A DNA stretch of 64,000 nt from an uncultured Latescibacterota bacterium (GCA_951812755.1 OX638329.1:5355563-5419562); one strand, 5' to 3'; counted from the first letter of the stretch, positions 5,284 through 60,474 are shown. Numbers and translations are program-made. Notes: generated by a model not told the origin, from the letters alone.

Positions 5284-5394
5284 TTTCAAATAAGTCTCGT
5301 GTCTAAACCCACTGGACTCCGGCTTCCGCCGGAGTGACGAACGACAGTTGTCATTGCGGCAGGGGGTTAGCCGCAATCCAGTCTATCGAAAAAA
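5284..5394 (+). repeat. Repeat family A, copy 1 (about 110 bp, structured, non-coding)
   Basis: About 90% identical to the reverse complement of 20713-20824. Contains two conserved hairpin stems (ctccggc/gccggag and ttgcggc/gccgcaa) whose loops differ between the two copies. Confidence 0.8.
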
Positions 5395-5455
5395 CATATC
5401 AACAAATTTTTTTGACAGACCACTCAGAACTTCCTTGCAACATGTATCAAAACAG

Positions 5456-9573: not shown

Positions 9574-10755
9574 ATGCCGACCATTGGAACACCGCTTTCA
9601 CCCACTGCAAATAGAGTACTCATGTGTGGCTCTGGCGAATTGGGAAAAGAAGTTGTAATTGAACTCCAGCGCTATGGCGTTGAAGTAATTGCCGTAGATC
9701 GCTATGCCAATGCGCCCGCGATGCAAGTAGCGCATTGGTCGCATGTCATTACCATGCTGGATGGGGACGCCCTGCGCGAAGTCATAGAAAAAGAACAGCC
9801 CGACTTAATCGTACCCGAAATTGAAGCAATCGCCACAGACACACTCATCGAATTGGAAAGCGAAGGATTCACAGTAATCCCAACAGCCCGAGCAACCCGA
9901 CTGACAATGAACCGCGAAGGCATCCGTCGCCTGGCTGCCGAAGAACTGGGACTAAAAACATCACCTTACCGATTTGCCTCAAATTTAGAAGAATACCGCG
10001 CAGCAGTCCAAGAAATCGGCATGCCGTGTGTCATAAAACCTACCATGAGTTCATCGGGCAAAGGGCAAAGCACCGTAAAAAACATAGCCGATGCCGAAAA
10101 ATCGTGGACCTATGCACAGGAAGGTGCGCGCGGGGGTGCAGATGCGGTCATCGTGGAAGGATTTGTGGATTTTGATTATGAAATTACGCTATTGACCCTG
10201 CGCTATGAAGGAGGCACGAGTTTTTGCGCGCCAATAGGACATCGACAGGTAGATGGTGACTATCGCGAATCGTGGCAACCACAACCGATGAGCGAGGCCG
10301 CACTTGCAGAATCACAACGGATGGGCAAAGCCATCACCGACGCATTGGGCGGCCGCGGCATATTTGGAGTGGAATTATTTGTCAAAGGCGACGACATCTA
10401 CTTCAGCGAAGTATCACCTCGCCCACATGACACGGGCATGGTAACCATGATATCGCAAGACCTCTCCGAATTTGCCCTGCATGCGCGGGCAATTTTGGGA
10501 TTGCCTGTTCCAAACATCAAACACCACGGTCCCTCTGCCTCGCATGTGATCCTGGTAGAAGGACATTCGCAACAGGTGAAATTCGGCAACCTGAGCGCAG
10601 CACTCGCCGCACCCGATACAGAAATTCGCTTATTTGGCAAACCCGAAGTACAGGGAGAACGGCGAATGGGCGTCGTCCTTGCAAGGGGCGCGACACTGCA
10701 AGAAGCGCGTAAAAAGGCAAAAGCGGGAGCGGAAGCCGTTAGCATCGCGCTTTGA
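9574..10755 (+). CDS. purT: Formate-dependent phosphoribosylglycinamide formyltransferase (GAR transformylase 2)
   Basis: 393 aa with full-length similarity to PurT (ATP-grasp; N-terminal motif [12 protein letters not shown]…). Confidence 0.9.
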
Positions 10756-18419: not shown

Positions 18420-20534
18420 ATGGCAAGCCAAAGATACAAAAATCTGTATGCACAAATAGAAACAGCACTGCGAGAAAAACCCAAACGCACACAGCTCTAC
18501 AACGCAGTCAAACGGGCGCGAGATGCACGGCGCACGGCAATTGATATTTTGCCACAAGGAGAGGCATTTCGCAAAGAAGTCCGCGACATCAAAGTGCGGT
18601 GCCTGCACAATCTGGACGACCTGGTCGATCAATTTGCCGCAAAAGTCGAATCGCGCGGAGCAAAGGTCTTTCTCGCAAAAGACGGTGCTGCTGCGATTGA
18701 CTATATCTTAAAGCTATCAGCAGAGAAAAATGCCGAGACAGTGGCAAAATCAAAATCGCTAACAAGCGAAGAGATCGAAGTCAATCACCCGATGGAGGAC
18801 GCGGGCTTAGAAGTAATCGAGACCGACCTCGGCGAGCTTATTATCCAGAAAGTCCACGAAAAACCATTCCATCTGGTATTTCCCGCAGTTCATAAAACCG
18901 CAGTTGAAGTAGCCGAAATATTTAAAAAAGAAACAGGTGAGGATGTCCCCAACGATGTAGATGCAATTATGAAAATCGTACGCAAATACCTGCGACCGAT
19001 TTTTCTCAACGCCGATATCGGCATGACAGGCGCGAATGTCGGCGTTGCCGAATCGGGCACTATCCTGATCGAAACCAACGAAGGCAATGCCCGTCTGGTA
19101 TCGAGCATTCCAGATGTACACATCTGCATTATGGGACGCGAAAAAGTAGTGGAAACAGTAGATGATGCGTTGCAAATGATGTTGGCACATCCCGTCAGCG
19201 CAGTCGGCCAACACACGACAACCTATGTAACGTGGATGAGTGGCAGATCGCCTCTGGGGCAGGGCGAGGGACGCGCACCGCGAGAATCGCATATCATCAT
19301 CCTGGACAATGGCCGCACCAGAATGCAAGAAGACCCCCTCTTTTCAGACGCACTCAACTGCATCCGCTGCGGCGCCTGTATGAATATCTGCCCGACATAC
19401 GGCGTGGTCGGCGGACATACATTTGGATACATATACCCCGGACCGATAGGCATACCCTGGACAGCTGAAGTTCACGGCGTAGATAAGGCCGGCGACTTCG
19501 CCCCGCTGTGTATCTCGTGTGGATTGTGCAAAGAAATATGCCCGGCAGAAATCGATATCCCGATGATGATAGCCGGGGTAAAAGACCGCGACAGCGAAGT
19601 CAACCCGCATCCGCGCGTCAACAAAATGCTGATGGCCGCTGAAAAAGCCGCAAAAATGGGCAGCTTGACAGCACCCATATCCAATTGGATAATGGGCATT
19701 GGATTGGTGCGATGGGCAATGGGTATTGATCGGCGGCGTCAGCTACCCAAATTCAGCCGAAAAACACTCGTAAAACGCTTCGCAAAACGCGGGCCGTCTC
19801 CCGTATCGAACCCCGTTCGCAAAGTAGCTTTTTTTACAGACCTATTTGCCAATTACAACGACCCCGACCTGGGAATGGCGGCAATCGAACGCTTGGAAGC
19901 ACTCGGTTGCGAAGTCATCATCCCCCCGCAAAAAAGCAGCGGATACCCCTACATCGGCTACGGCGACCTGAAAAACGCGAAAAAAATTGCACGCGAGAAC
20001 GTAGATCTCCTCTTGCCCTATATACAGCAGGGCTATGAGGTGGTTGCAACAGAACCCACGGCAACGTATTGCCTGAAAATTTCATACCCCAAATTGCTCG
20101 ATAAAGCAGAAGATGTCGTCTCTGTCGCCGAACACACGTATGAGTTCTTCGAGTTCCTATCCCTGCTCGAAAGCAATATTGAAGATAGTGAGCAAAATAC
20201 TCTGCGCGGACGCGCATTTGGATTCCACATCCCTTGCCACCAGCGTCCTCTGGGTGCAGGCGAACACGCAATGGCATTCTTGCGCCAGCGGGGTGCAGAC
20301 GTCGCCCTCATAGAAACAGGCACCTGCTGCGGCATGGCGGGAACATTTGGCCTGAAAGCCGGACCTCTCGGCTACGAACTCGCACAGGCTGTTGGAGAGC
20401 CACTCTTCGAAGGCTTTCGCGAAGCCAACGTAGAAGCCATCGTAACAGAAAGCAGCGTGTGCGCCATCCACCTCTCAGAAGGAACCGAACTCGAAGTCTG
20501 GCATCCCTTAAACCTGCTTCGTCTCCTGGAGTAG
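18420..20534 (+). CDS. Fused LutB/LldF-like and LutA/LldE-like Fe-S oxidoreductase (LUD domain, two 4Fe-4S ferredoxin motifs, cysteine-rich CCG domains)
   Basis: 704 aa. CIRCGACMNICPTY and CISCGLCKEICPAE ferredoxin motifs. The C-terminal half carries CCG-type motifs (…GTCCGMAG…). Confidence 0.75.
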   Translation: MASQRYKNLYAQIETALREKPKRTQLYNAVKRARDARRTAIDILPQGEAFRKEVRDIKVRCLHNLDDLVDQFAAKVESRGAKVFLAKDGAAAIDYILKLSAEKNAETVAKSKSLTSEEIEVNHPMEDAGLEVIETDLGELIIQKVHEKPFHLVFPAVHKTAVEVAEIFKKETGEDVPNDVDAIMKIVRKYLRPIFLNADIGMTGANVGVAESGTILIETNEGNARLVSSIPDVHICIMGREKVVETVDDALQMMLAHPVSAVGQHTTTYVTWMSGRSPLGQGEGRAPRESHIIILDNGRTRMQEDPLFSDALNCIRCGACMNICPTYGVVGGHTFGYIYPGPIGIPWTAEVHGVDKAGDFAPLCISCGLCKEICPAEIDIPMMIAGVKDRDSEVNPHPRVNKMLMAAEKAAKMGSLTAPISNWIMGIGLVRWAMGIDRRRQLPKFSRKTLVKRFAKRGPSPVSNPVRKVAFFTDLFANYNDPDLGMAAIERLEALGCEVIIPPQKSSGYPYIGYGDLKNAKKIARENVDLLLPYIQQGYEVVATEPTATYCLKISYPKLLDKAEDVVSVAEHTYEFFEFLSLLESNIEDSEQNTLRGRAFGFHIPCHQRPLGAGEHAMAFLRQRGADVALIETGTCCGMAGTFGLKAGPLGYELAQAVGEPLFEGFREANVEAIVTESSVCAIHLSEGTELEVWHPLNLLRLLE

Positions 20535-20564
20535 AGCGCATCCTATAGGACCTATTCCCCTAAC

Positions 20565-20605
20565 CCCCTTCCCGTCTCGGGGAGGGGTCAGAATTATTTT
20601 TGAAA
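20565..20605 (+). terminator. Intrinsic terminator after the Fe-S oxidoreductase gene
   Basis: ccccttcccgtctcggggagggg hairpin followed by tcagaattattttt. Confidence 0.6.
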
Positions 20606-20712
20606 CAATTCAAAAAAAACTTGCATTTTAATACAAGTGTATTATATTAGTAATACAGTAATTCACTTATTGGAAAAATACCTCATTGGTCTTGCAAAAA
20701 AATCTGCTAACA

Positions 20713-20824
20713 TTTTTTCTAATAGACTGGATTGCGGCTTAAAGCATGCCGCAATGACAACCGTCGTTCGTCACTCCGGCGCAGGCCGGAGTCCAGTGGA
20801 TTTAGACACGAAACTTATTTGAAA
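20713..20824 (-). repeat. Repeat family A, copy 2 (inverted relative to copy 1)
   Basis: Reverse complement matches 5284-5394. Both stems are conserved while the loops differ (ttcc vs gcag; agggggtta vs ttaaagcat). Ends 9 bp before the gntR start codon. Confidence 0.8.
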
Positions 20825-20832
20825 GACCACTC

Positions 20833-21228
20833 ATGTTGATCTCAATTGACCATCACAATGGCATACCCGTTTTTCGTCAGATCATCGACCAGGTGAAATT
20901 TCACGTAGTCAGCGGGCTACTCGCGCCGGGTGATGAACTGCCCTCGACCCGTGCATTATCGGGACAACTGGGACTCAACCCAATGACAGTGAGCAAAGCG
21001 TACAGCTTATTGGAAGCAGAGGGATTGGTAGAGCGGCGGCGCGGACGACCCTTAACCGTAAAACCCTTACGAGATCAGACCGTACACGCCGAAAAACTGG
21101 CACAACTCAAACCACAACTCACACAATTGGCAACAATGGTTCGGCAGTTGGGGGTTGATCGGGCGGAAGTCGTAGATCTTTTTCTCTCCATCTTAGATAC
21201 CCTGGAGGAAGACAATGATGGCACATGA
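20833..21228 (+). CDS. GntR-family transcriptional regulator (short, YtrA-like)
   Basis: 131 aa with the N-terminal winged HTH motif LPSTRALSGQLGLNPMTVSKAYSLLEAEGLVERRRG. Confidence 0.85.
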   Translation: MLISIDHHNGIPVFRQIIDQVKFHVVSGLLAPGDELPSTRALSGQLGLNPMTVSKAYSLLEAEGLVERRRGRPLTVKPLRDQTVHAEKLAQLKPQLTQLATMVRQLGVDRAEVVDLFLSILDTLEEDNDGT

Positions 21229-22108
21229 CCAGACATCTGTATTTGAAGCCACATCACTGACCAAAAAATTCGATGACATCATAGCTCTCAATTCCGTAAC
21301 ACTCTCTCTTGGGGCGCATCGCGTAATTGGATTGATCGGACGCAATGGCGGCGGCAAAACCACCTTAATCCAGCACATGATCGGCCTGTATTTGCCCACA
21401 GAGGGAACGTGTAAAACACTGGGACGCACATGCGATCAATTGGGGGCAAACGAACTTTCGCGCATAGGCGTGGTACACCAGGAAAATCGCTTTTTTGAAT
21501 GGATGACCGTCAAACAGCATCTGCACTACGTGTCTTCATTTTACGAGGTCTGGGACCGCGACCTGGAAGCGCATCTGCTGCGCGAACTCGAACTGGAAAC
21601 ATCTGCACGCGTGGGCAACCTGTCTTCGGGTAACATGCAAAAATTGGGAATCATTCTGGCAGTATGTCATCATCCCGAGTTATTGATCTTAGATGAGCCG
21701 GTCAGTGGCCTGGACCCCATTGCCCGAGAGACACTGTTGAAATTTCTAATGACACTCCTGGCTGAAGACCAAAACACAATCGTGATCTCCTCGCACATTC
21801 TGCGAGACATCGAAAAAATAGTAGATTGGGTCGTATGCCTCGACGAAGGTGTGGTCAAAGCCGACAAGTCCCTGGACGATCTGCACCAGACCTACGCAAA
21901 GTGGACAGTCACAGGAAACAACCTGCCCCAGCAATTTTCCGAACCTTATATCCTGTCGCAAACAGTGAACGGAGTACAGGCACAATTGATCGTCAACCAG
22001 ACACTGGGCAATGCAGATCAATTCAAACGGACTTATCAAGCTGATATCACCAGTCAGTCTCTGAACCTCGACCAGCTATTTCCCATCCTGATTCGGGAGG
22101 GTGCGTAA
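21215..22108 (+). CDS. ABC transporter ATP-binding protein
   Basis: 297 aa. Walker A GRNGGGKTT, signature LSSGNMQK and Walker B LLILDEP. Confidence 0.9.
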   Translation: MMAHDQTSVFEATSLTKKFDDIIALNSVTLSLGAHRVIGLIGRNGGGKTTLIQHMIGLYLPTEGTCKTLGRTCDQLGANELSRIGVVHQENRFFEWMTVKQHLHYVSSFYEVWDRDLEAHLLRELELETSARVGNLSSGNMQKLGIILAVCHHPELLILDEPVSGLDPIARETLLKFLMTLLAEDQNTIVISSHILRDIEKIVDWVVCLDEGVVKADKSLDDLHQTYAKWTVTGNNLPQQFSEPYILSQTVNGVQAQLIVNQTLGNADQFKRTYQADITSQSLNLDQLFPILIREGA

Positions 22109-23592
22109 TGGGTATTCTTCCGTTCTTCACATTTTTGCGAAGCCCTGTTCACATTATCATCTCATTTTTTGCATGTCTGTTACTCGCCCATGTCTCGTGG
22201 ACTGCCGACAGAGATCAGTTCTTTGTGTTTCTCGTATTTCTGCTATTCTTCTTCAGTGGATTTTGGGGCTATGCTATCGGCGGTATTGTAGCGGAGAACC
22301 AGCATCGGATACTCACATGGACCCTGCCGTATTTTCGCAAGCGTCTGCTGATCTGGTCAATAATTGTCGGACTATTTTCCGTTGTAGTGTGGACGGCAGC
22401 GCTGACGTTTGCACCCCTCAATGCATCCTGGTCAACAATCTTGCTAATAAACTTGGGCTTTTATTGTTTCGGATTTGTCTGTACAGCAGGTTGGGATTTT
22501 GGTGTTTATCATTCTATGGCGATCCAGGCATGTCAGACCATATTAATGTTTTTATTTCTCATATTGGCTTTTTTTTGGCAAGAGGTGCTCGCCTTTGGAG
22601 AGCAACAAAAATTGGGGTTGGCTCTCATCGCATTCGCCATCACAATTGCGGCTTATTATTTTTCGTTTAAGCAGACAACTTTTCGGAGAAAGCCTCTTTA
22701 CTTGCTTTGGTCACTGCGCTCGGTTTTTTATCCTCATATCTGGGAGATGTGGAAAAGGGATACAATGAAGAGGCGAAGGCCGAGTACCAGGGTATGGCAT
22801 CTTGATCACATCGGTACAGGCATCTTCAATTGGCTACGTGCGGGCCGGTATGAAAATAGTGGTGGCAAGCTATGGCTATGGCTGCTCCCCGGGTTTAGTG
22901 CAGCATTGGCAATGGTGTTCTATTTCATTGGCATGATGACGAATGGATTCGGGATATTGGGTCGGTCTCCTTACGATTTTGAGACCGTATTGAAAACGAT
23001 TTATCACATGACCTTTTATTTCGACCAGTTGGACTCTAAAATCGCCATCAATATATCTCTTTCAGCGTTTTTCGGCCTTTGGGCGTATGTGACGTATATT
23101 TGGAGTCATCCTTTTTTCTTAAAAAAAGGGTATGTGTATCCGCTTTCTCGCACCCAGCGGATGTGGATTTGGTATTGTGGTTTTCTGGTGCAAAATATTT
23201 CTTTTTTTGCAACATCTATTCTGGTGTTGGGTGTTCTGGGCATCCTGGCGGGAGCGAAGATCGGATTTGTGTCTGAAGGGAATATTTCCTTGAGAATACT
23301 TTGTGTCTTTGGGTGGGCAGTGGTTCTTTGGCCGATGTTTCAGTGGCTACAAGTCAAATATCACCTATATGAATTTCCAAGAACGCGGCGACAAATATGG
23401 GGGATGGCTTTTCTGTTCTTGATCATGATTTTGGCTTGTGGAATCGCTGGTTTTGCTGCCCTGATGCGTAATCTATACCCCGACCTATCACTGACCTTTG
23501 AAGTGCCGATCCTTTTTGTCTGTTTTATTCTCTTACAATGGTTCCTGTTAGCCCGGCTTAAACGGTATTACGCCACACAGGATCTGGTTTAG
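22108..23592 (+). CDS. Polytopic membrane protein (putative ABC-2-type permease partner of the upstream ATPase)
   Basis: 494 aa, at least 10 predicted TM segments, translationally coupled to the ATPase (the ATG overlaps its stop). About 70% identical to the paralog at 24813-26279. Confidence 0.6.
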   Translation: MGILPFFTFLRSPVHIIISFFACLLLAHVSWTADRDQFFVFLVFLLFFFSGFWGYAIGGIVAENQHRILTWTLPYFRKRLLIWSIIVGLFSVVVWTAALTFAPLNASWSTILLINLGFYCFGFVCTAGWDFGVYHSMAIQACQTILMFLFLILAFFWQEVLAFGEQQKLGLALIAFAITIAAYYFSFKQTTFRRKPLYLLWSLRSVFYPHIWEMWKRDTMKRRRPSTRVWHLDHIGTGIFNWLRAGRYENSGGKLWLWLLPGFSAALAMVFYFIGMMTNGFGILGRSPYDFETVLKTIYHMTFYFDQLDSKIAINISLSAFFGLWAYVTYIWSHPFFLKKGYVYPLSRTQRMWIWYCGFLVQNISFFATSILVLGVLGILAGAKIGFVSEGNISLRILCVFGWAVVLWPMFQWLQVKYHLYEFPRTRRQIWGMAFLFLIMILACGIAGFAALMRNLYPDLSLTFEVPILFVCFILLQWFLLARLKRYYATQDLV

Positions 23593-23600
23593 CAACCAAA

Positions 23601-23607
23601 TTAAGAA
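23601..23607. repeat. Target-site duplication TTAAGAA, left copy (transposon family B, copy 1)
   Basis: An identical 7-mer flanks the element on the right at 23855-23861. Confidence 0.7.
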
Positions 23608-23854
23608 CTGACGTTACGCATAGGTAGAATATAATGGGCCTGTCATTCTGAGCCTTTCGGCTACGCTCAAGATAAACTCCGCGCAGCGGAGTCGAAGGAG
23701 CGGGGTACAACTGGCCGGTGAACGAGCCTGAAAAGCGGCTCGTTGTACACCATCCTCAGGCTAGTTCATCTCTTACCAACACAGGTGGAACAGATGCTTC
23801 GGCTCCGTTTCACTCCGCTCAGCATGACAAAAACCCAAACCTGCGTAACATCAG
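23608..23854 (+). mobile_element. Miniature inverted-repeat transposable element (MITE-like), family B copy 1, 247 bp
   Basis: 13-bp terminal inverted repeats (CTGACGTTACGCA … TGCGTAACATCAG) flanked by a 7-bp direct repeat TTAAGAA. A second copy with different flanks lies at 59989-60211. It has internal hairpins and no ORF of meaningful size. Confidence 0.8.
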
Positions 23855-23871
23855 TTAAGAAGGAAAAAGAG

Positions 23872-24711
23872 ATGGCATATCCAAATCTGAAGCAGTCTAT
23901 TTGGCTGCTGGTATTATTGGTCCTTATTAGCGCTGGTTTGGGGATACCTGTTGCGATCCTGGGAACGATTATTGACCAGCCGTTGCACAAAAGTCCTTAT
24001 GCGCTCTGGCCATTGACACTGGTGAGTTTTGTTTTGGTCGTACACTATGTTTTGCGTCGAACCAATCGGACCTGGGCTTCGTGGTCTGATATCATGCCCA
24101 TAAAAGCCATTTCGTGGCAATTGCTACTGCCACTTGTGGTATCTATCCTTGGATTGTTGATCGTCTCTCTGGAATTGGGAAAAGTGATGATGTCTTTGGC
24201 CCCAACGCCCGAGGTAGTGAAAGATACACTCCGCGGGTTGGTCGGCAAAAAAACCTCTTATTGGTTGGCCTTTTACGGCGCGGTGATTCAAACACCTGTC
24301 ATAGAAGAGGCACTTTTTAGAGGTATTATTGTGGGTGGTTTGTTGGCGTATTGGTCAAAGTATAAGGCTGCTATTTGGTCGGCAATTTTGTTTGGCATAT
24401 ATCACCTGAACCCAGCGCAATTTCCCGTGGCCTTCATATTGGGGCTTGTATTCGCATGGTGGATTATTCAAACGGGATCTTTATTACCTTGTATCCTGGG
24501 ACACGCATTGAACAATTTTCTGGCTATTACCCTGGCACGATCGGGAATACCGGGCTTTAAAAATCCAAAAGCTCTGATCTTTCTGCCGTGGTGGGTGGTC
24601 GTGTGTGCCGTACTATTGGCCGCGATTGGGTTGTGGTGGTTCTATCAAGTAGCAAAGCGCGAAGAAACAGATCTGCTTAAAGCGGAAGTTGAACCCGAGA
24701 GACATTGTTGA
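23872..24711 (+). CDS. CPBP-family (CAAX protease/Abi-type) intramembrane metalloprotease
   Basis: EEALFRG, FGxxH and HALNN motifs. The true start is most likely ATG 23872 (MAYPNLK, SD aaggaaaaagag). The track ORF's 5' extension to 23743 lies inside the transposon. Confidence 0.8.
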   Translation: MAYPNLKQSIWLLVLLVLISAGLGIPVAILGTIIDQPLHKSPYALWPLTLVSFVLVVHYVLRRTNRTWASWSDIMPIKAISWQLLLPLVVSILGLLIVSLELGKVMMSLAPTPEVVKDTLRGLVGKKTSYWLAFYGAVIQTPVIEEALFRGIIVGGLLAYWSKYKAAIWSAILFGIYHLNPAQFPVAFILGLVFAWWIIQTGSLLPCILGHALNNFLAITLARSGIPGFKNPKALIFLPWWVVVCAVLLAAIGLWWFYQVAKREETDLLKAEVEPERHC

Positions 24712-24812
24712 AATTTCTAATGACACTTTTGGCTGAGGATGAAAACACAACCATGACATCATGCACTAAACCTCGACCAGCTATTCCCCATCCTGATACG
24801 GGAGGACATGTA
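24690..24812 (+). pseudogene. Remnant of a duplicated ABC ATPase gene (two segments homologous to 21727-21790 and 22049-22110, joined by an internal deletion)
   Basis: …ETLLKFLMTLLAED(E/Q)NT… followed by …LNLDQLFPILIREG… and then the permease ATG, mirroring the ATPase-permease junction at 22108. Confidence 0.75.
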
Positions 24813-26279
24813 ATGGGTATTCTTCCCTTTTTCACATTTTTGCGAAGCCCTGTTTACATTATCATCGCATTTTTTGCATATCTGTTGCTCGCTCACGTCT
24901 GGATGTCTTCCCAAGCAGATCGGATCTCTGTCTTCGTTTTGTTTTTCTTTATTGAATTTTGGGGCGGGACTATCGGCAGTATGGTAGGAGAGAACCAGTA
25001 TCGGATGCTCACATGGACCCTGCCACATTTTCGCAAGCGTCTGATGATGTGGTCGGCAATAGTCGGACTATTTTCCATTGTAGCCTGGACAGATGCGCTA
25101 ACTTATGCACCTCTCAATGCGTCCTGGTCAACGATTTTGCTGTTGAATCTGGGCCTCTATTGTATCGGATTTGCCTTTTCAGGAGGTTGGAGTTTTGGTA
25201 TCCAGCACCCCGGGTTGGCTTCTGTGTGCCGGGGCCTCATCGTGTTTCTGGGACTGGCATCAGCCTATTTTTGGCAAGAGGTGCTCGCTTTTGGAGAGCA
25301 ACAAAAGTTGGGGTTGGCTCTCATCGCATTCGCCATCGCAATTGGAACTTATCATTTCGCCTTTAACCAGACAACTTTTCGGAGGAAGCCATTCTCTTTG
25401 GTTCTTCCACTGCGCTTAACCCTTTTTCCCCAAACCCGGGAGTTTTGGGAAAGGAATGCAATGAACAGGCGAAAGCCGAGTACCAGAATATGGCATCTCG
25501 ATCACGTCGGTACAGGCATCGTCAATTGGCTGCGTGCCGGTCAGTATGAAAATTCTGGTCTGGGTGGGTGGAGATGGCCACTTTCCGCGTTTACTGCAGT
25601 ATCAGCAATGGTGTTTTTTTTTCTTGGCATGATAACGTCTATGTTCGGGTTGTCGGATCGATCTCCGTACGATTTTGAGACCGTCTTGAAAATGATTTAT
25701 CATATGATTTTTTATTTTAACCAGTTGGACTCCAAGGTCACCGGGGATATATTCGCTGCCGTATTTTTCGGCATTTGTATGTATATTTTTATTTCTCCTA
25801 TTTCACTTAAAAAAGGGTACGTCTATCCGCTTTCTCGCACCCAGCGGATGTGGATTCGGTATAGCAGTTTGCTGGTGCAAAATATTTCTTTTTTTGCAGC
25901 GTCTATTCTGATATTGGGGGTTCTGGGCATCCTGGCGGGGGCAAAGATCGGGTTTGTGTCTGAAGGGGATATTTCCCTGAGAATACTCTGTGTCCTGGGG
26001 TGGTGGGTCGTTCTTTTACCGCTATTGCAGTGGTTGCAAGTCAAATATGACCTGTATGATTTTCAAAGAACGCGGCAACAGGTATGGGGGATGGCTTGTC
26101 TGATCCTGATCCTGATTTTGTCTCTTGGATTCACTGGTTTTACCAGTCTGATGCGTGTCCGCTATCCCGATTTGATGCTGACCTATGAAGCGCCGATCCT
26201 TTTTCTCTCTTTTATTCTGTTGCAATGGTTTCTATTGAATCGGCTCAAACGGTATTATGCCACACAGGACCTGATTTAG
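24813..26279 (+). CDS. Polytopic membrane protein, paralog of 22108-23592
   Basis: 488 aa from ATG 24813. Colinear with the upstream permease at about 70% identity. The ORF-track extension to 24705 corresponds to the ATPase remnant. Confidence 0.6.
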   Translation: MGILPFFTFLRSPVYIIIAFFAYLLLAHVWMSSQADRISVFVLFFFIEFWGGTIGSMVGENQYRMLTWTLPHFRKRLMMWSAIVGLFSIVAWTDALTYAPLNASWSTILLLNLGLYCIGFAFSGGWSFGIQHPGLASVCRGLIVFLGLASAYFWQEVLAFGEQQKLGLALIAFAIAIGTYHFAFNQTTFRRKPFSLVLPLRLTLFPQTREFWERNAMNRRKPSTRIWHLDHVGTGIVNWLRAGQYENSGLGGWRWPLSAFTAVSAMVFFFLGMITSMFGLSDRSPYDFETVLKMIYHMIFYFNQLDSKVTGDIFAAVFFGICMYIFISPISLKKGYVYPLSRTQRMWIRYSSLLVQNISFFAASILILGVLGILAGAKIGFVSEGDISLRILCVLGWWVVLLPLLQWLQVKYDLYDFQRTRQQVWGMACLILILILSLGFTGFTSLMRVRYPDLMLTYEAPILFLSFILLQWFLLNRLKRYYATQDLI

Positions 26280-26503
26280 TTTAGGTGGATTAATAAATCA
26301 ATCGGATGGTATAGTGATTGCAATGCGTTCAACTCGAATTTCGTAGGACAAAAGCACAATTTTTGCATGATTATGCATATATGCATTTGTTTTCTCATAG
26401 ATTTTTTAATTTTTTATACATGCTAATAGCGTTTAATATTTTGGTGCGGATTATCCATCCTTTTGCACACGTATGTATTTCTATACCTGAAAAAATAACG
26501 TGT

Positions 26504-29500
26504 ATGTTTGAAAACGGAACGATTCTCGACGAAAGATATCAAATCCAGACGCACCTGGGAACCGGGGGCATGGGCGAAGTCTATCGGGTTTTAGACCTGG
26601 ACCAAAACCAGGCGTGCGCGCTCAAAATTTTGAATACCATGGTGGATCACAAGGCGGTACATCGCCGTTTTCACAGAGAATTTCAAGTGTTGAACAGATT
26701 CCATCACCCGCGCCTGGTCCGCACATACACCTGGGGCTTTGCCGAAGATCGCCCTTATTTTACGATGGAATATTTACCCGGAAAGACATTGGAAAAAGTA
26801 ATTGCCGATCATGCGCTATTAGGGCAATTCCAGGCTTCGTACTTTTTTCCCCTGATGGAACAACTTGCCGAAGGATTGGCATATATCCACGCGCAGGGTG
26901 CGGTACATCGCGATCTCAAACCATCCAATATTATGGTATTGGAAACAGAAGAGGGGATCAAGATCACGATCCTGGATATGGGACTGGCGAAACTCCGACA
27001 TCTGCATAGTGCCTCCATTACGCAGACGGGCACAGCCATTGGCACGGCAGAATATATGTCACCAGAGCAAGGTAAGGGATTATGGGTAGATCATCGATCA
27101 GATTTGTACTCATTGGGCATAATTTTATACGAGATGCTCACGGGCACACCGCCTTTTTCGGGACAAAATCCCATATCTGTTATTATGAAGCACATTCGAG
27201 AGATACCGCCCTCAATGGGCGAAATCAATATCGCTGTTCCTGATGAGATACAACAAATTGTGTTGAAGTTGCTGGCAAAGGAGCCTGTTGATCGTTTTCA
27301 GTCCGCAGACGAAGTATTGCGTGCCTTACCATCGGAGTTTGTGCTACCGGATGACGAGCAGCGCGATGTGCATAGAAAAGTTATGCGGCCGCAATTTATC
27401 GGGCGCGAATCCGAAATGAAGACATTGCGCGCAATGTTGCAGGATGTACAGGCTGGCGAACAGCGCGTGATTCTAATCTCCGGTGAATCTGGTGTGGGAA
27501 AAACGAGATTGGTTGAAGAACTATTGGGCGATGCGCTAATCCATGACTTTCTGTGTTTGAAAAGCGCAGGCCAGGAAGAGGGTGGACAAATATACGGTGC
27601 GTTGATTGATGCTTTTCAAGGAACGACGGATTTGGTTAGAAGGGAAACAGACAAGTTTTCTGTTATGGAGCGTTGGTTGCAGTTATTAAAAAGTCTGCGA
27701 CAGAAACAGCCCATCGTGTTGTGTTTAGAAAATATTCAATGGCTTGACGAATTGACCCTGGAATTTTTGCAGTATGTATTACGCGATCCAGACCCGTGTC
27801 CGTTTTTGTTATGTCTGACCTGTCAATGGTCCAACCTGGAACCGCTTTCAGAGGAAATTAAAAATTTTATACACAGTAATGAATTTGCCGAGGCGACCCG
27901 GATTCAGTTGGAGAATCTACCGCGTAAAGAGATGGGGTATTTAGCAGCGTCGATGTTGGGGGAGCGATCCATACCTCGAGATGCATTGCAAACCCTGTTC
28001 AGAGAAACGGGTGGGCAACCCCTGTTTGTCGTAGAGGCTGTGAGGACACTGGTGAATGCCGATGTGGTTCGGCAGAATGTATTTGGCGATTGGCAGTGGG
28101 GAGAATTTCCCCAAACATTATTATCCGATGATATTTCAGAGATTTTGCACAGACGCATAGCTACCCTGCCTGCTGTGCAACAGCGAGTGCTGGAATACGC
28201 CTGTGTTTTTCTCAATGATTTTTCTTTTGACTTATTGGCTGCGGTTTGGCGCGGTGATGAGTTGGAATTGTTGGATGTGCTGGACGACCTGATTGCAGAA
28301 GGGCTTTTAGCCGCCTGTGGAGAGGCTGAAGATCGATATCGTTTTTCACAGGGTCTGTATCGGCGGGCAATTTACGATCGCATGCAAAATGTGCGGCGAC
28401 GGCTGTTGCATCGAGAAATTGGCAATGCTTTGGAAAAGATGGATGATGCAGAAGAATTGACAGAAGAATTGGCGGATCATTTTGCGGCGGCGAAAGAACA
28501 AGATAAAGCTATAAAATATACGCGTCTATCAGGCAAAAAAGCATTGGAGGTACAAGCGTATCGCCAGGCATTGAGACGGTTTGAGGCTGTGCGAGGCTGG
28601 ACATCAGATGACGCTTTTGAATCACCTGCAGATACCATCGTTTTTTTATGCGATTATGCAAACGTTTTACGCTGTTGTAGTCAGCACAATAGCGCACTGG
28701 AACTTTTAGACGAGGCAAAAGCGTTATTGCCCGATAATCGGAAAGATTTAAAGGCGCGTATTTTGTGGAATGAAGGCATTATTCACAGCGTACTTCAACA
28801 TGGGAAAGTAGCAGAAGAATATATGCTGGAGGCATTGCGATTTTACCGGGAATTGGGTGATCTCGACGGAGAAATTCAGGCGTTGGGGAGTTTGGCTCAT
28901 TTATGCGATGTGTCTGAGCGTCACGAAGAAGCGATTGCATATATGTGTCGAGAAATAGAGAAATATGCTGCTCTGGGAGAAGCCCAGAACAAGGCTATTG
29001 TACAAGTCCGAGAAGGTATGGTTGCATTGGTGGAATTTCGATTTGGGACGGCCAAAGTACACCTAAAAGCGGCTGTAAAAACATCTCAGAAATTGGGACT
29101 TGAACACCATCGCATTGGAGCACTCAATTTACTTTTAAGAGTTTATTTTTATTCAGGTGATCTCGACCAAGCAGAAGCCGTTTGCCACGAAGTCATTGGT
29201 GAGTGGCAGAAGCGAGGCATTGTGTATTGGGAGGCAATGAATTTTCTCCGGTTGGGAGAATTGGCTCTGGAACGCGATGGTTTTTCAGAAGCATTGGAAT
29301 ATGCCGAGACCTCAGCAGAGCGATTTTTGGAAACACCGCGAAGAGATTACGTCTATCGCGCTTATGCGATAGCAGCAACGGCTGCTGCGAGAATGGGAGA
29401 TACAGAGACAGCTCTTGAATGGGCAGAAAGAGCCAGTGAAGGTGTGCAACAAACATCGGGTATGTACACGGGCATATTGCCCCTGGTGTATTGTGGTATA

Positions 29501-31308: not shown

Positions 31309-31347
31309 GTGCATCCAGATGTATGCAGTGCATCCTGGCGGATGCAC
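31309..31347. promoter_or_regulatory. Upstream activator sequence: perfect 20-bp palindrome GTGCATCC-TGGC-GGATGCAC (31328-31347), overlapped by a degenerate third copy (31309-31328)
   Basis: Read directly from the sequence. About 200 bp upstream of the sigma-54 promoter. Confidence 0.7.
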
Positions 31348-31408: not shown

Positions 31409-31428
31409 GTGCATCCTATCGGATGCAC
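31409..31428. promoter_or_regulatory. Upstream activator sequence: second perfect 20-bp palindrome GTGCATCC-TATC-GGATGCAC
   Basis: Has the same half-sites as 31328-31347 and lies 81 bp downstream of it. An AT-rich tract follows, plausibly bendable or IHF-binding. Confidence 0.7.
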
Positions 31429-31537
31429 TTACACCTGAATCTCGCAGGTGTAGCACAAATAATCCTTAATTTTTATCTCTTTGTTTTTCAAGCACTTGAG
31501 AATTTTCATGTGCTTTTTTTTTGCTGAGACGATTTTG

Positions 31538-31552
31538 GGCACGGATCTTGCA
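31538..31552 (+). promoter_or_regulatory. sigma-54 (RpoN) promoter GGCACG-N4-TTGCA
   Basis: Exact match to the -24 GG / -12 GC consensus (tGGGCACGgatcTTGCAtc) with correct spacing, about 55 nt upstream of the small peptide ATG. Confidence 0.75.
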
Positions 31553-31608: not shown

Positions 31609-31788
31609 ATGGCAACACGACGCAAATTGACTTTGGTCAACGGTGCAATAGATCAAGAAGGTAGCATTCTTATGTATCAGACTGTAAAGAGTGTAGAGGT
31701 TCACTGCGAGCCTTATACTTTTGCTGTTCCCCTCCTTCCCTTCCCCGATAATGATCCCGATTGGGACGATTTTGATCAGTCTGAGTAA
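31609..31788 (+). CDS. Small peptide (59 aa), candidate RiPP precursor (MATRRKLTLVNGAIDQEGSILMYQTVKSVEVHCEPYTFAVPLLPFPDNDPDWDDFDQSE)
   Basis: Missing from the track (below 60 aa). Excellent SD AAGGAGG 6 nt upstream of the ATG. Sits between a sigma-54 promoter and a radical-SAM/SPASM gene. Basic N-terminus, single Cys, Pro-rich and acidic C-terminus. Confidence 0.7.
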   Translation: MATRRKLTLVNGAIDQEGSILMYQTVKSVEVHCEPYTFAVPLLPFPDNDPDWDDFDQSE

Positions 31789-59973: not shown

Positions 59974-59988
59974 ATTACAAGTTATTGA

Positions 59989-60211
59989 CTGATGTTACGC
60001 ATGTCTGGGGTTTTGTCATGCTGAGCGGAGTGAAACGGAGCCGAAGCATCTGTTCCACCTGTGTTGGTAGGAGATGAACTGGCCTGAGGATGGTGTACAA
60101 CGAGCCGCTTTTCAGGCTCGTTCACCGGCCAGTTGTACCCCGCTCCTTCGACTCCGCTGCGCTTCGCTCAGAATGACAGGCGCATTGTATTGTACCTATG
60201 CGTAACGTCAG
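59989..60211 (-). mobile_element. Miniature inverted-repeat transposable element, family B copy 2 (223 bp, inverted relative to copy 1)
   Basis: Terminal inverted repeats CTGATGTTACGCA … TGCGTAACGTCAG flanked by the 7-bp direct repeat TTATTGA (59982-59988 and 60212-60218). About 90% identical to 23608-23854 apart from a 26-bp indel or so. Confidence 0.8.
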
Positions 60212-60219
60212 TTATTGAT

Positions 60220-60474
60220 ATGGCGTATGAGATGACAGAACATGCGCGTGATAGTTTGCGTAAGCGTCCCAATATTCGTACAGAGTGGATTGAAAGCGTA
60301 CTTGACCATCCCGAGCGCGTGGACCCCGATAAACATGACCCAGAATTAGAACACCGATTAGGGCGAATTCGGGAATATGATGGCCGAGTATTGCGTGTGA
60401 TCGTAAAAAAAGATACATTTCCGTTAAAAATCATCACATGCTATTTTGATCGCAATATGCGGAGGCAATTATGA
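60220..60474 (+). CDS. DUF4258-family protein (putative toxin-like component)
   Basis: 85 aa from ATG 60220 (MAYEMTEHARDSLRKR…). The track ORF's 5' extension lies inside the transposon. Overlaps the downstream DUF2283 gene by 4 nt. Confidence 0.6.
   Translation: MAYEMTEHARDSLRKRPNIRTEWIESVLDHPERVDPDKHDPELEHRLGRIREYDGRVLRVIVKKDTFPLKIITCYFDRNMRRQL

What the first reader, a model, noticed from the sequence alone, without database searches (positions are those of the whole stretch)
20833..26279. GntR-ABC-permease module duplicated around a CPBP (Abi) protease: candidate export/immunity unit for the adjacent peptide system
The layout is GntR regulator, ABC ATPase, 494-aa permease, transposon, CPBP intramembrane protease, 120-bp remnant of a second ATPase gene copy, then a paralogous 488-aa permease. 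The remnant reproduces both ends of the ATPase gene (21727-21790 and 22049-22110), joined by an internal deletion. It also reproduces the stop/ATG overlap with the permease. So the ATPase-permease pair was tandemly duplicated and the second ATPase copy then collapsed. Short GntR regulators paired with ABC transporters, and CPBP/Abi proteases, are recurrent bacteriocin/RiPP immunity and export components. Their position directly upstream of the peptide-rSAM regulators makes a functional link plausible.
Basis: partly seen in the sequence, partly recalled or inferred. Interest (0 to 1): 0.6.

Follow-up and report, generated by a model that had tools for sequence, protein, structure and literature searches.

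The report
Repressor-controlled ABC pump with swappable membrane subunits
A sponge-associated Latescibacterota bacterium carries a small self-repressed ABC pump operon in which one ATPase serves two fast-evolving, recombining membrane partners plus a membrane protease; it looks like a stand-alone envelope-defence module, and nothing found here ties it to the neighbouring modified-peptide operon.

Summary
GntR (20833-21228), ABC ATPase (21215-22108), 494-aa membrane protein (22108-23592), a 247-bp MITE, CPBP protease (23872-24711), a 119-bp ATPase remnant (24694-24812) and a 488-aa paralogue (24813-26279) are all present.

The remnant also supplies the last codons and stop of the CPBP gene. The duplication is old. 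The same CPBP/remnant junction occurs in seven other Candidatus Latescibacterota genomes. Copy number ranges from a truncated fragment to three, with independent losses, swapped paralogue order and one recent chimeric gene.

The membrane protein belongs to an undescribed 12-helix family (no Pfam or NCBIfam match, no PDB fold match). In every informative context sampled it follows a short GntR and an ABC ATPase. It evolves about five times faster than its ATPase (dN/dS 0.31-0.52 versus 0.07).

The link to the peptide-rSAM operon is not supported. Each module occurs without the other elsewhere, each appears to have its own control sites, and permease type does not track peptide variant.

The best reading is a YtrA-type repressor/ABC extruder module, like MbrRAB or Pmt, with diversified membrane subunits and an accessory protease. 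Function is inferred, not shown.

The parts
20621..20657 (+). Promoter-like site (TTGCAT, 16 nt, TATATT) overlapped by a perfect palindrome TGTATTA-TATTAG-TAATACA (20638-20657), the probable GntR operator
   Evidence: Conserved across all 16 related loci with single-base variants only (L008 and L015), including those with only 81% ATPase identity. It is the only match in the window. The role as operator is inferred.
20672..20830 (+). About 159-bp repeated element inserted between the operator and the GntR start codon
   Evidence: Absent from the other loci that cover this site and present at the same site in L013. An 86% identical copy lies at 5284-5422 on the minus strand.
20833..21228 (+). 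Short (131 aa) GntR-family regulator of YtrA type
   Evidence: Pfam GntR E 3.7e-16. Near full-length alignments to the PmtR and Rv1152 models, both below their cut-offs. dN/dS 0.09.
21215..22108 (+). ABC ATPase (297 aa), the only complete copy
   Evidence: Pfam ABC_tran E 1.3e-24. Best NCBIfam match PmtA, 9e-50. Nearest solved sequences are ABCA-type nucleotide-binding domains and NosF. dN/dS 0.07.
22108..23592 (+). Membrane partner 1 (494 aa, type A), predicted 12 helices, undescribed family
   Evidence: No Pfam, NCBIfam or PADLOC match. AlphaFold2 pLDDT 84. No PDB fold match. The start codon overlaps the ATPase stop codon.
23608..23854 (+). MITE flanked by the 7-bp target duplication TTAAGAA (23601-23607 and 23855-23861)
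   Evidence: 86% identical copy at 59982-60223 with its own duplication TCAATAA. Strong hairpin, z = -5.2. Absent from all related loci. Without it the permease stop and the CPBP start are about 25 nt apart.
23872..24711 (+). CPBP (Rce1-like) intramembrane protease, 279 aa
   Evidence: Pfam PF02517 E 1.8e-20. Motifs EEALFR, FGIYH and HALNN are intact. Best NCBIfam match is the ABC-permease/CPBP fusion family NF041647, below its cut-off. dN/dS 0.17.
24694..24812 (+). Remnant of a second ATPase copy: 24694-24756 matches 21723-21785, and 24766-24812 matches 22061-22107
   Evidence: The same left junction is found in L001, L002, L006 and L007. Shorter stubs remain in L008, L013 and L016.
24813..26279 (+). 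Membrane partner 2 (488 aa, type B), an intact paralogue
   Evidence: 67% identical to partner 1, with dN 0.20 and dS 0.48. Open reading frame intact and aligned over its full length with partner 1. Orthologues at 84-87% in L002, L005 and L009.

Best explanation
The block 20621-26279 appears to be one self-repressed operon. It encodes a YtrA-type GntR repressor, a single ABC ATPase, two paralogous 12-helix membrane partners of an undescribed family, and a CPBP intramembrane protease.

Shown:
- The GntR-ATPase-membrane protein trio is an old, self-contained module found in many genomic contexts.
- In this Latescibacterota clade the membrane gene was duplicated, and a collapsed ATPase stub was left in front of the extra copy.
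- The array keeps changing: one to three copies (plus one truncated fragment), independent deletions, swapped order and a recent chimera.
- The membrane subunit evolves much faster than the ATPase or the repressor, yet stays intact.

Inferred:
- The repressor binds the palindrome that overlaps the -10 element.
- Each membrane paralogue pairs with the shared ATPase to form alternative pumps.
- The pumps sense and expel membrane-active peptides or similar amphiphiles, as MbrRAB and Pmt do.
- The CPBP protease (or, in relatives, a secreted HExxH peptidase in the same slot) helps to neutralise such peptides.
- The module works independently of the neighbouring sigma-54-controlled rSAM peptide operon.
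For: - Gene content and family matches.
- Conserved promoter and palindrome in 16 loci. Single operator in the window.
- The trio is conserved in distant relatives with overlapping stop and start codons.
- Locus maps show one to three copies plus one truncated fragment.
- Paralogue types and their swapped order.
- dN/dS is 0.31-0.38 within types and 0.47-0.52 between types, against 0.05-0.09 for LUD, GntR and the ATPase.
- L002 copy 3 is a chimera. Its first ~650 nt are 93-100% identical to L002 copy 1 (mostly >=97%). Most of the remainder is 94-100% identical to copy 2, falling to 86-88% in the last windows.
- Two different deletions removed the second copy in L013 and in L008/L016.
- A conserved junction of about 100 nt precedes every copy.
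- CPBP catalytic motifs are intact, and L002/L005 carry a secreted HExxH DUF1570 protein in the same slot.
- Published analogues: MbrRAB, whose regulon includes the CaaX protease MbrX (bioRxiv 10.64898/2026.02.18.706565), and PmtR/Pmt (PMC5080381).
Against: - No experiment or expression data exist for this system.
- The membrane protein has no detectable similarity to any known ABC permease. 'Permease' rests on context alone.
- NCBIfam matches to PmtR, PmtA and NF041647 are all well below the curated cut-offs.
- The fast-evolving segments lie mostly in predicted membrane helices. High dN/dS may therefore reflect relaxed constraint rather than an arms race.
- The known analogues are from Gram-positive bacteria. 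Latescibacterota are presumably diderm (my own knowledge), so the substrate and its route may differ.
- The MITE between permease 1 and CPBP, and the frame-shifted remnant, could reduce expression of the distal genes.
Confidence: 0.5

Rival explanations
1. One reading: the module is the dedicated exporter and self-immunity unit for the adjacent rSAM-modified peptide.
For: Adjacency is conserved in 13 related genomes. No other transporter gene was seen in the peptide operon itself. Pmt shows that a YtrA-type ABC module can export a producer's own peptides.
Against: Each module occurs without the other elsewhere. The conserved partner of the peptide and rSAM is the kinase/sigma-54 activator, not the ABC block. 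The two units have separate control sites. Permease type does not follow peptide variant. L017 keeps the peptide and rSAM although its ATPase is deleted and its permease is truncated. The closest NCBIfam models for the rSAM include the maturases for SCIFF and QhpC; neither peptide is known to need export (my own knowledge).
Confidence: 0.15
2. The module is an envelope-homeostasis device like Bacillus YtrBCDEF. The ABC complex acts mechanically or as a signal on cell-envelope synthesis, not as an efflux pump for peptides.
For: YtrA-type operons respond to cell-wall stress and alter wall thickness (PMC8060467 and PMC12772383, abstracts). The membrane protein does not resemble known exporters.
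Against: Fast evolution, copy-number change, chimeras and exchangeable protease genes are unusual for a housekeeping envelope function.
Confidence: 0.2
3. The second permease is a redundant, decaying leftover of a duplication and has no function of its own.
For: The second copy was lost at least twice in relatives. Its ATPase partner has collapsed. In the window the remnant is frame-shifted and a MITE sits upstream.
Against: All 20 ingroup copies examined in 13 genomes have open reading frames without internal stops. The window copy aligns over its full length with its paralogue. dN/dS is 0.31-0.38 within types despite dS of about 0.23-0.29. The ribosome-binding site and start context are conserved.
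Confidence: 0.08

Closest known systems
MbrRAB multi-bacteriocin resistance module of Streptococcus salivarius (bioRxiv 10.64898/2026.02.18.706565)
   Same: A YtrA-type GntR repressor, an ABC ATPase and a membrane component in one autoregulated operon. The repressor binds a palindrome. A CaaX/CPBP protease belongs to the same defence set.
   Different: A different phylum, probably with a different envelope type. The membrane subunit here is about 490 aa, with 12 predicted helices, in an undescribed family. Here the protease lies inside the operon and the membrane subunit is duplicated. Capture of the repressor by the ATPase was not tested.
PmtR-PmtABCD phenol-soluble modulin exporter of Staphylococcus aureus (PMC5080381)
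   Same: PmtR and PmtA are among the best NCBIfam matches for the repressor and the ATPase. The operon is repressed by a YtrA-type regulator and handles amphipathic peptides.
   Different: Scores are far below the equivalog cut-offs (49.7 vs 200 bits; 169.5 vs 350 bits). Pmt has two ATPases and two small permeases. No PSM-like genes were identified next to this module.
Bacillus subtilis YtrA / YtrBCDEF
   Same: The founding YtrA-type repressor with its ABC transporter operon, induced by envelope-active antibiotics.
   Different: Different subunit composition. No homology of the membrane parts was detected. Its function is also unresolved.
NF041647 ABC transporter permease subunit / CPBP intramembrane protease fusion proteins
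   Same: The window's CPBP protein aligns best to the C-terminal CPBP part of this fusion family (E 3e-25). This shows that ABC permease and CPBP functions are combined elsewhere.
   Different: Here the two are separate genes, and the score (89 bits) is far below the family cut-off (435 bits).

Membership tests
YtrA subfamily of GntR regulators | N-terminal GntR winged-helix domain | tested here: met
   Pfam PF00392, E 3.7e-16, residues 15-76.
YtrA subfamily of GntR regulators | Very short protein with only a small helical C-terminal part (about 120-130 aa) | tested here: met
   131 aa. Aligns along nearly the whole length of the PmtR (125 positions) and Rv1152 (120 positions) models. The size criterion is as described in PMC5080381.
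YtrA subfamily of GntR regulators | Encoded next to, and regulating, an ABC transporter operon through a palindromic operator | tested here: inconclusive
   Adjacency and a conserved palindrome over the -10 element are shown. Binding and repression were not tested.
PmtR/PmtA (NCBIfam equivalogs NF047563, NF047565) | Score above the curated equivalog cut-off | tested here: not met
   49.7 bits against a cut-off of 200, and 169.5 bits against 350.
ABC-2 type (type V) exporter | ATPase of the DrrA/ABCA-like clade | tested here: met
   Best matches are PmtA, DrrA and lantibiotic-protection ATPases, and ABCA3/ABCA4/ABCA1 and NosF among solved structures.
ABC-2 type (type V) exporter | Membrane subunit recognisable as an ABC-2 permease by sequence or fold | tested here: not met
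CPBP / Rce1-like intramembrane glutamic proteases | Pfam PF02517 above the gathering score, with motifs EExxxR, FxxxH and HxxxN | tested here: met
   73.4 bits against a cut-off of 22.4. EEALFR at 145, FGIYH at 174, HALNN at 211.
Dedicated RiPP/bacteriocin export-immunity unit of the adjacent rSAM cluster | Co-occurrence with the peptide and maturase genes across relatives | tested here: not met
   Each module is found without the other. Adjacency occurs only within one fully syntenic clade.
Dedicated RiPP/bacteriocin export-immunity unit of the adjacent rSAM cluster | Shared regulation or co-variation with the peptide | tested here: not met
   One GntR operator only. A separate sigma-54-like promoter serves the peptide. 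Permease types are mixed across peptide variants.
MITE (non-autonomous transposable element), for 23608-23854 | Terminal inverted repeats, target-site duplication, several copies, no transposase | tested here: met
   7-bp duplications TTAAGAA and TCAATAA at the two copies. No ORF resembling a transposase.

The most novel reading that the evidence does not exclude
The locus is a cassette array that diversifies the substrate-recognising membrane subunit of a defence pump. One conserved ATPase/repressor core serves interchangeable, rapidly evolving membrane subunits. The conserved junction of about 100 nt (the ATPase 3' stub plus the permease 5' end) acts as a portable recombination and translation-start adaptor. 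It lets copies be gained, lost, reordered and fused into chimeras. This would be functionally comparable to specificity-subunit shuffling in other conflict systems.
Probability: 0.2. Interest if true: 0.6.

Novelty: new variant of a known kind. Interest (0 to 1): 0.4.

Why it matters
YtrA-type repressor/ABC modules were only recently shown to be compact sensors and pumps against antimicrobial peptides, and so far mainly in Bacillota. This locus extends the layout to an uncultured sponge-symbiont phylum. It uses a membrane partner family with no annotation and no detected structural relative. It also shows a pattern not reported in the papers consulted here: one ATPase with several fast-evolving, recombining membrane subunits and exchangeable protease genes. 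If the subunits set substrate specificity, the array records peptide warfare inside sponge microbiomes and offers natural variants for mapping specificity. The analysis also warns against treating the ABC/CPBP block as part of the neighbouring rSAM peptide gene cluster when mining these genomes.

Tried and rejected
- AlphaFold2 with the narrow family alignment gave pLDDT 46 and was discarded. A deeper alignment with distant relatives gave pLDDT 84.
- A profile search against PDB sequences found nothing.
- A test for an internal duplication of the membrane protein (N-half against C-half with hhalign) was negative.
- PADLOC gave no defence-system match for the permeases, CPBP or DUF1570, and only generic ATPase hits.
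- Rfam found no RNA family in 20300-26700.
- The generic promoter/terminator scan was at background level and uninformative.
- An exact look-up of the window's permease found no public contig.
- A crossover point that would explain why type A is first in the window could not be located. The ATPase 3' end is of the 'first position' type right up to the ATG.
- A simple tandem duplication of the ATPase-permease pair does not by itself account for the junction inside CPBP. The exact order of events stays unresolved.
- Positive selection was considered. It is not claimed, because the segments with pN/pS near 1 are mostly membrane helices.
Full report
**What is in the window.** On the + strand lie a 131-aa GntR regulator (20833-21228) and a 297-aa ABC ATPase (21215-22108). 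Next is a 494-aa membrane protein (22108-23592) whose ATG overlaps the ATPase stop. A 279-aa CPBP/Rce1-like protease follows (23872-24711), then a 488-aa paralogue of the membrane protein (24813-26279). The two membrane proteins are 67% identical end to end.

Block 24694-24756 matches ATPase 21723-21785 at 87%. Block 24759-24835 matches 22054-22130 at 84%; the remnant portion of that block ends at 24812. About 268 bp is missing between the blocks, and the TAATG stop/start overlap is kept.

Three details needed correction:
- The 'transposon' is a 247-bp MITE (23608-23854). It has inverted ends and a 7-bp target duplication, and a second copy lies at 59982-60223. Without it the first membrane gene and CPBP are about 25 nt apart.
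- The remnant begins inside the CPBP gene and supplies its last six codons and stop, read in another frame.
- In this genome the deletion is out of frame. An ATG at 24720 therefore reads straight into the second membrane gene.

**Whose genome, and how old the event is.** Homologues of the membrane protein form a narrow group from Candidatus Latescibacterota MAGs. Some are labelled Gemmatimonadetes in NCBI, and I believe they are sponge-associated.

In 13 related genomes the region is syntenic: LUD-domain gene, GntR, ATPase, a variable stretch, then a kinase/sigma-54 activator, a small peptide and an rSAM enzyme. The variable stretch takes several forms:
- one membrane gene (L009-L012);
- membrane gene + CPBP (L008, L013, L016);
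- membrane gene-CPBP-remnant-membrane gene (L001, L006, L007 and the window);
- membrane gene-DUF1570-remnant-membrane gene (L005);
- three membrane genes (L002);
- a truncated fragment (L017).

Every CPBP gene ends in the same ATPase-derived sequence, even where no second membrane gene follows. L013 and L008/L016 show two different deletion junctions that removed the second copy. The stub after DUF1570 in L002 and L005 is the first 45 nt of CPBP fused to the same ATPase remnant, so all remnants share one origin. The duplication therefore predates these genomes and has been followed by repeated loss.

**A dynamic array.** The membrane genes fall into three types:
- type A: 494 aa, including the window's first copy;
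- type B: including the window's second copy;
- type C.

Types B and C sit directly after the ATPase in every genome except the window. Type A is a later copy everywhere except the window, where it is first.

The third copy in L002 is a recent chimera. Its first ~650 nt are 93-100% identical to that genome's type B gene (mostly >=97%). Most of the remainder is 94-100% identical to its type A gene, falling to 86-88% in the last windows. Every copy is preceded by the same ~47 nt of ATPase 3' sequence and begins with a conserved ~50 nt. Together these form a shared stretch suited to homologous recombination.

**Rates of evolution.** Median pairwise dN/dS values are as follows:

| Gene | dN/dS |
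|---|---|
| LUD | 0.05 |
| ATPase | 0.07 |
| GntR | 0.09 |
| rSAM | 0.11 |
| CPBP | 0.17 |
| Membrane protein, within a type | 0.31-0.38 |
| Membrane protein, between types | 0.47-0.52 |

For the window's two copies, dN is 0.20 and dS is 0.48. Silent divergence between paralogues is thus only slightly above that between genomes (0.25-0.45). Much of the difference between the paralogues is therefore extra amino-acid change.

All copies are open, and the window's second copy aligns over its full length with the first, so both are under selection. Segments with pN/pS near or above 1 (residues 11-35, 202-222, 319-330, 427-447) lie mostly in predicted membrane helices. I cannot separate relaxed constraint from diversifying selection.

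**What the membrane protein is.** It has no Pfam, NCBIfam or PADLOC family. A profile search of 1.8 billion representatives found 138 hits. About 100 are full-length proteins of 440-540 aa at 15-24% identity, also without Pfam families.

In the distant contexts sampled (L018, L019, L023) the gene follows a short GntR gene and an ABC ATPase gene with overlapping stop and start. In L024, which is cut at the contig end, it follows an overlapping unidentified gene fragment consistent with an ATPase 3' end. The same trio occurs in L003, L014 and L015.

With these relatives in the alignment, AlphaFold2 gives a confident 12-helix model (pLDDT 84, pTM 0.76). Foldseek finds no PDB match for it (best E 0.2). 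A profile search of PDB sequences also finds nothing, and no internal repeat is detectable. 'Permease' is therefore an inference from context.

The ATPase is of the DrrA/ABCA-like kind.

**Regulation.** Upstream of GntR, all 16 loci share TTGCAT, 16 nt, TATATT. A perfect palindrome TGTATTA-TATTAG-TAATACA lies over the -10 element (window 20638-20657). This is the only such site in the 64-kb window. It looks like a GntR operator for self-repression, but that is inferred.

The window and L013 carry a ~159-bp repeated element between this site and the GntR start.

**The proposed link to the peptide-rSAM operon.** rSAM homologues of 42-57% identity were sampled in three other contexts. In L021 and L022 the kinase/sigma-54 activator, small peptide and rSAM sit together with no GntR, ABC or CPBP gene nearby. 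L020 shows the same peptide and rSAM but is cut inside the regulator gene, so it is uninformative upstream. The ABC trio likewise occurs without the rSAM unit.

In the window the peptide has its own sigma-54-like promoter (31537-31551). Two palindromes (31328-31347 and 31409-31428) lie upstream of it.

Peptide core variants do not track membrane-protein types. The 'C-x-PY-(S/T)F' group occurs with A+B, C+A and C alone. The 'CPSG' group occurs with B, C, C+A and B+A.

L017 keeps the peptide and rSAM while its ATPase is deleted and its membrane gene is truncated.

Adjacency in one fully syntenic clade therefore gives no support for a functional link. A link is not excluded, but nothing favours it.

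**Most likely function.** The closest described systems are YtrA-type repressor/ABC modules.
- In MbrRAB the membrane component senses incoming bacteriocins and the ATPase captures the repressor. The regulon includes a CaaX protease (bioRxiv 10.64898/2026.02.18.706565).
- In Pmt a YtrA-type repressor controls a pump for amphipathic peptides (PMC5080381).

NCBIfam's best matches here are PmtR, PmtA and an ABC-permease/CPBP fusion family, all below their cut-offs. The CPBP catalytic motifs are intact. In L002 and L005 a secreted HExxH DUF1570 protein occupies the same slot.

Several features fit a conflict-type module: fast evolution, variable copy number, chimeras and an exchangeable protease gene. 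My best reading is an envelope-defence pump with alternative membrane subunits sharing one ATPase. Confidence is 0.5 for the function and much higher for the anatomy and history.

**Verdict.** The evolutionary reading is broadly right, but the event is older and more complex than stated. The functional link to the rSAM peptide is not supported. This is a new variant of a known kind of system, of moderate interest.

Noticed in passing
window 59982-60223 (minus strand): Second copy of the 247-bp MITE (86% identical, lacking about 24 bp internally). It has its own 7-bp target duplication TCAATAA, so the element family has been mobile in this genome.
   Followed up: partly
window 20672-20830 and 5284-5422 (minus strand); L013 8542-8723: A different ~159-bp repeated element sits between the GntR operator and the GntR start codon. 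The window and L013 have it at this site. A copy lies elsewhere in the window. It lengthens the 5' leader of the operon and replaces the sequence just before the ATG.
   Followed up: partly
window 31328-31347, 31409-31428 and 31537-31551: Two palindromes (GTGCATCC-N4-GGATGCAC) and a sigma-54-like promoter (GGGCACGGATCTTGC) lie upstream of the 59-aa peptide gene. This fits control by the neighbouring sigma-54 activators.
   Followed up: partly
window 31609-31788; L001-L016 peptide genes: The rSAM substrate peptides share a conserved N-terminal part (MATRRKLTL(V/I)NG..) and an acidic tail (PFPDDDDDWDDF). Between these lies a variable core with a single Cys. dN/dS is 0.36, the highest in the region apart from the membrane proteins.
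   Followed up: partly
L020, L021, L022: The trio of giant Ser/Thr kinase-AAA16-TPR-GAF-sigma-54 activator, small peptide and rSAM/SPASM enzyme recurs at 42-57% rSAM identity in unrelated genomic contexts. It is probably the true conserved unit of that peptide system.
   Followed up: partly
L002 6491-7354; L005 8970-9830: A secreted DUF1570 protein with an HEASH zinc-peptidase motif occupies the slot after the first membrane gene. It is followed by the first 45 nt of a deleted CPBP gene fused to the ATPase remnant.
   Followed up: yes
L001, L006, L007 at 9900-10001: In these genomes the ATPase remnant is an in-frame 33-codon mini-ORF (MTLLTEDENT...LFPILIREDM). Its stop overlaps the permease ATG, which might preserve translational coupling. 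In the window and L002 the frame differs and the ATG is in frame with the permease.
   Followed up: partly
L017 9893-10357: In this genome most of the ATPase gene and the first ~350 codons of the membrane gene are deleted. GntR, the kinase/activator, the peptide and the rSAM are retained.
   Followed up: no
L002 11742-16481; L005 11723-16518: The kinase/sigma-54 activator gene is split into two ORFs (L002) or matched in two overlapping pieces (L005). This suggests a frameshift or a natural split in that lineage.
   Followed up: no
L001, L011, L016, upstream of the GntR promoter: A G+C-rich palindromic insert (CCCCCCTAACCCCCCTTCCTGCGAGGAAGGGGGG...) lies between the LUD gene and the promoter. 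It is absent from the other loci that cover this site; the window sequence examined did not reach it.
   Followed up: no
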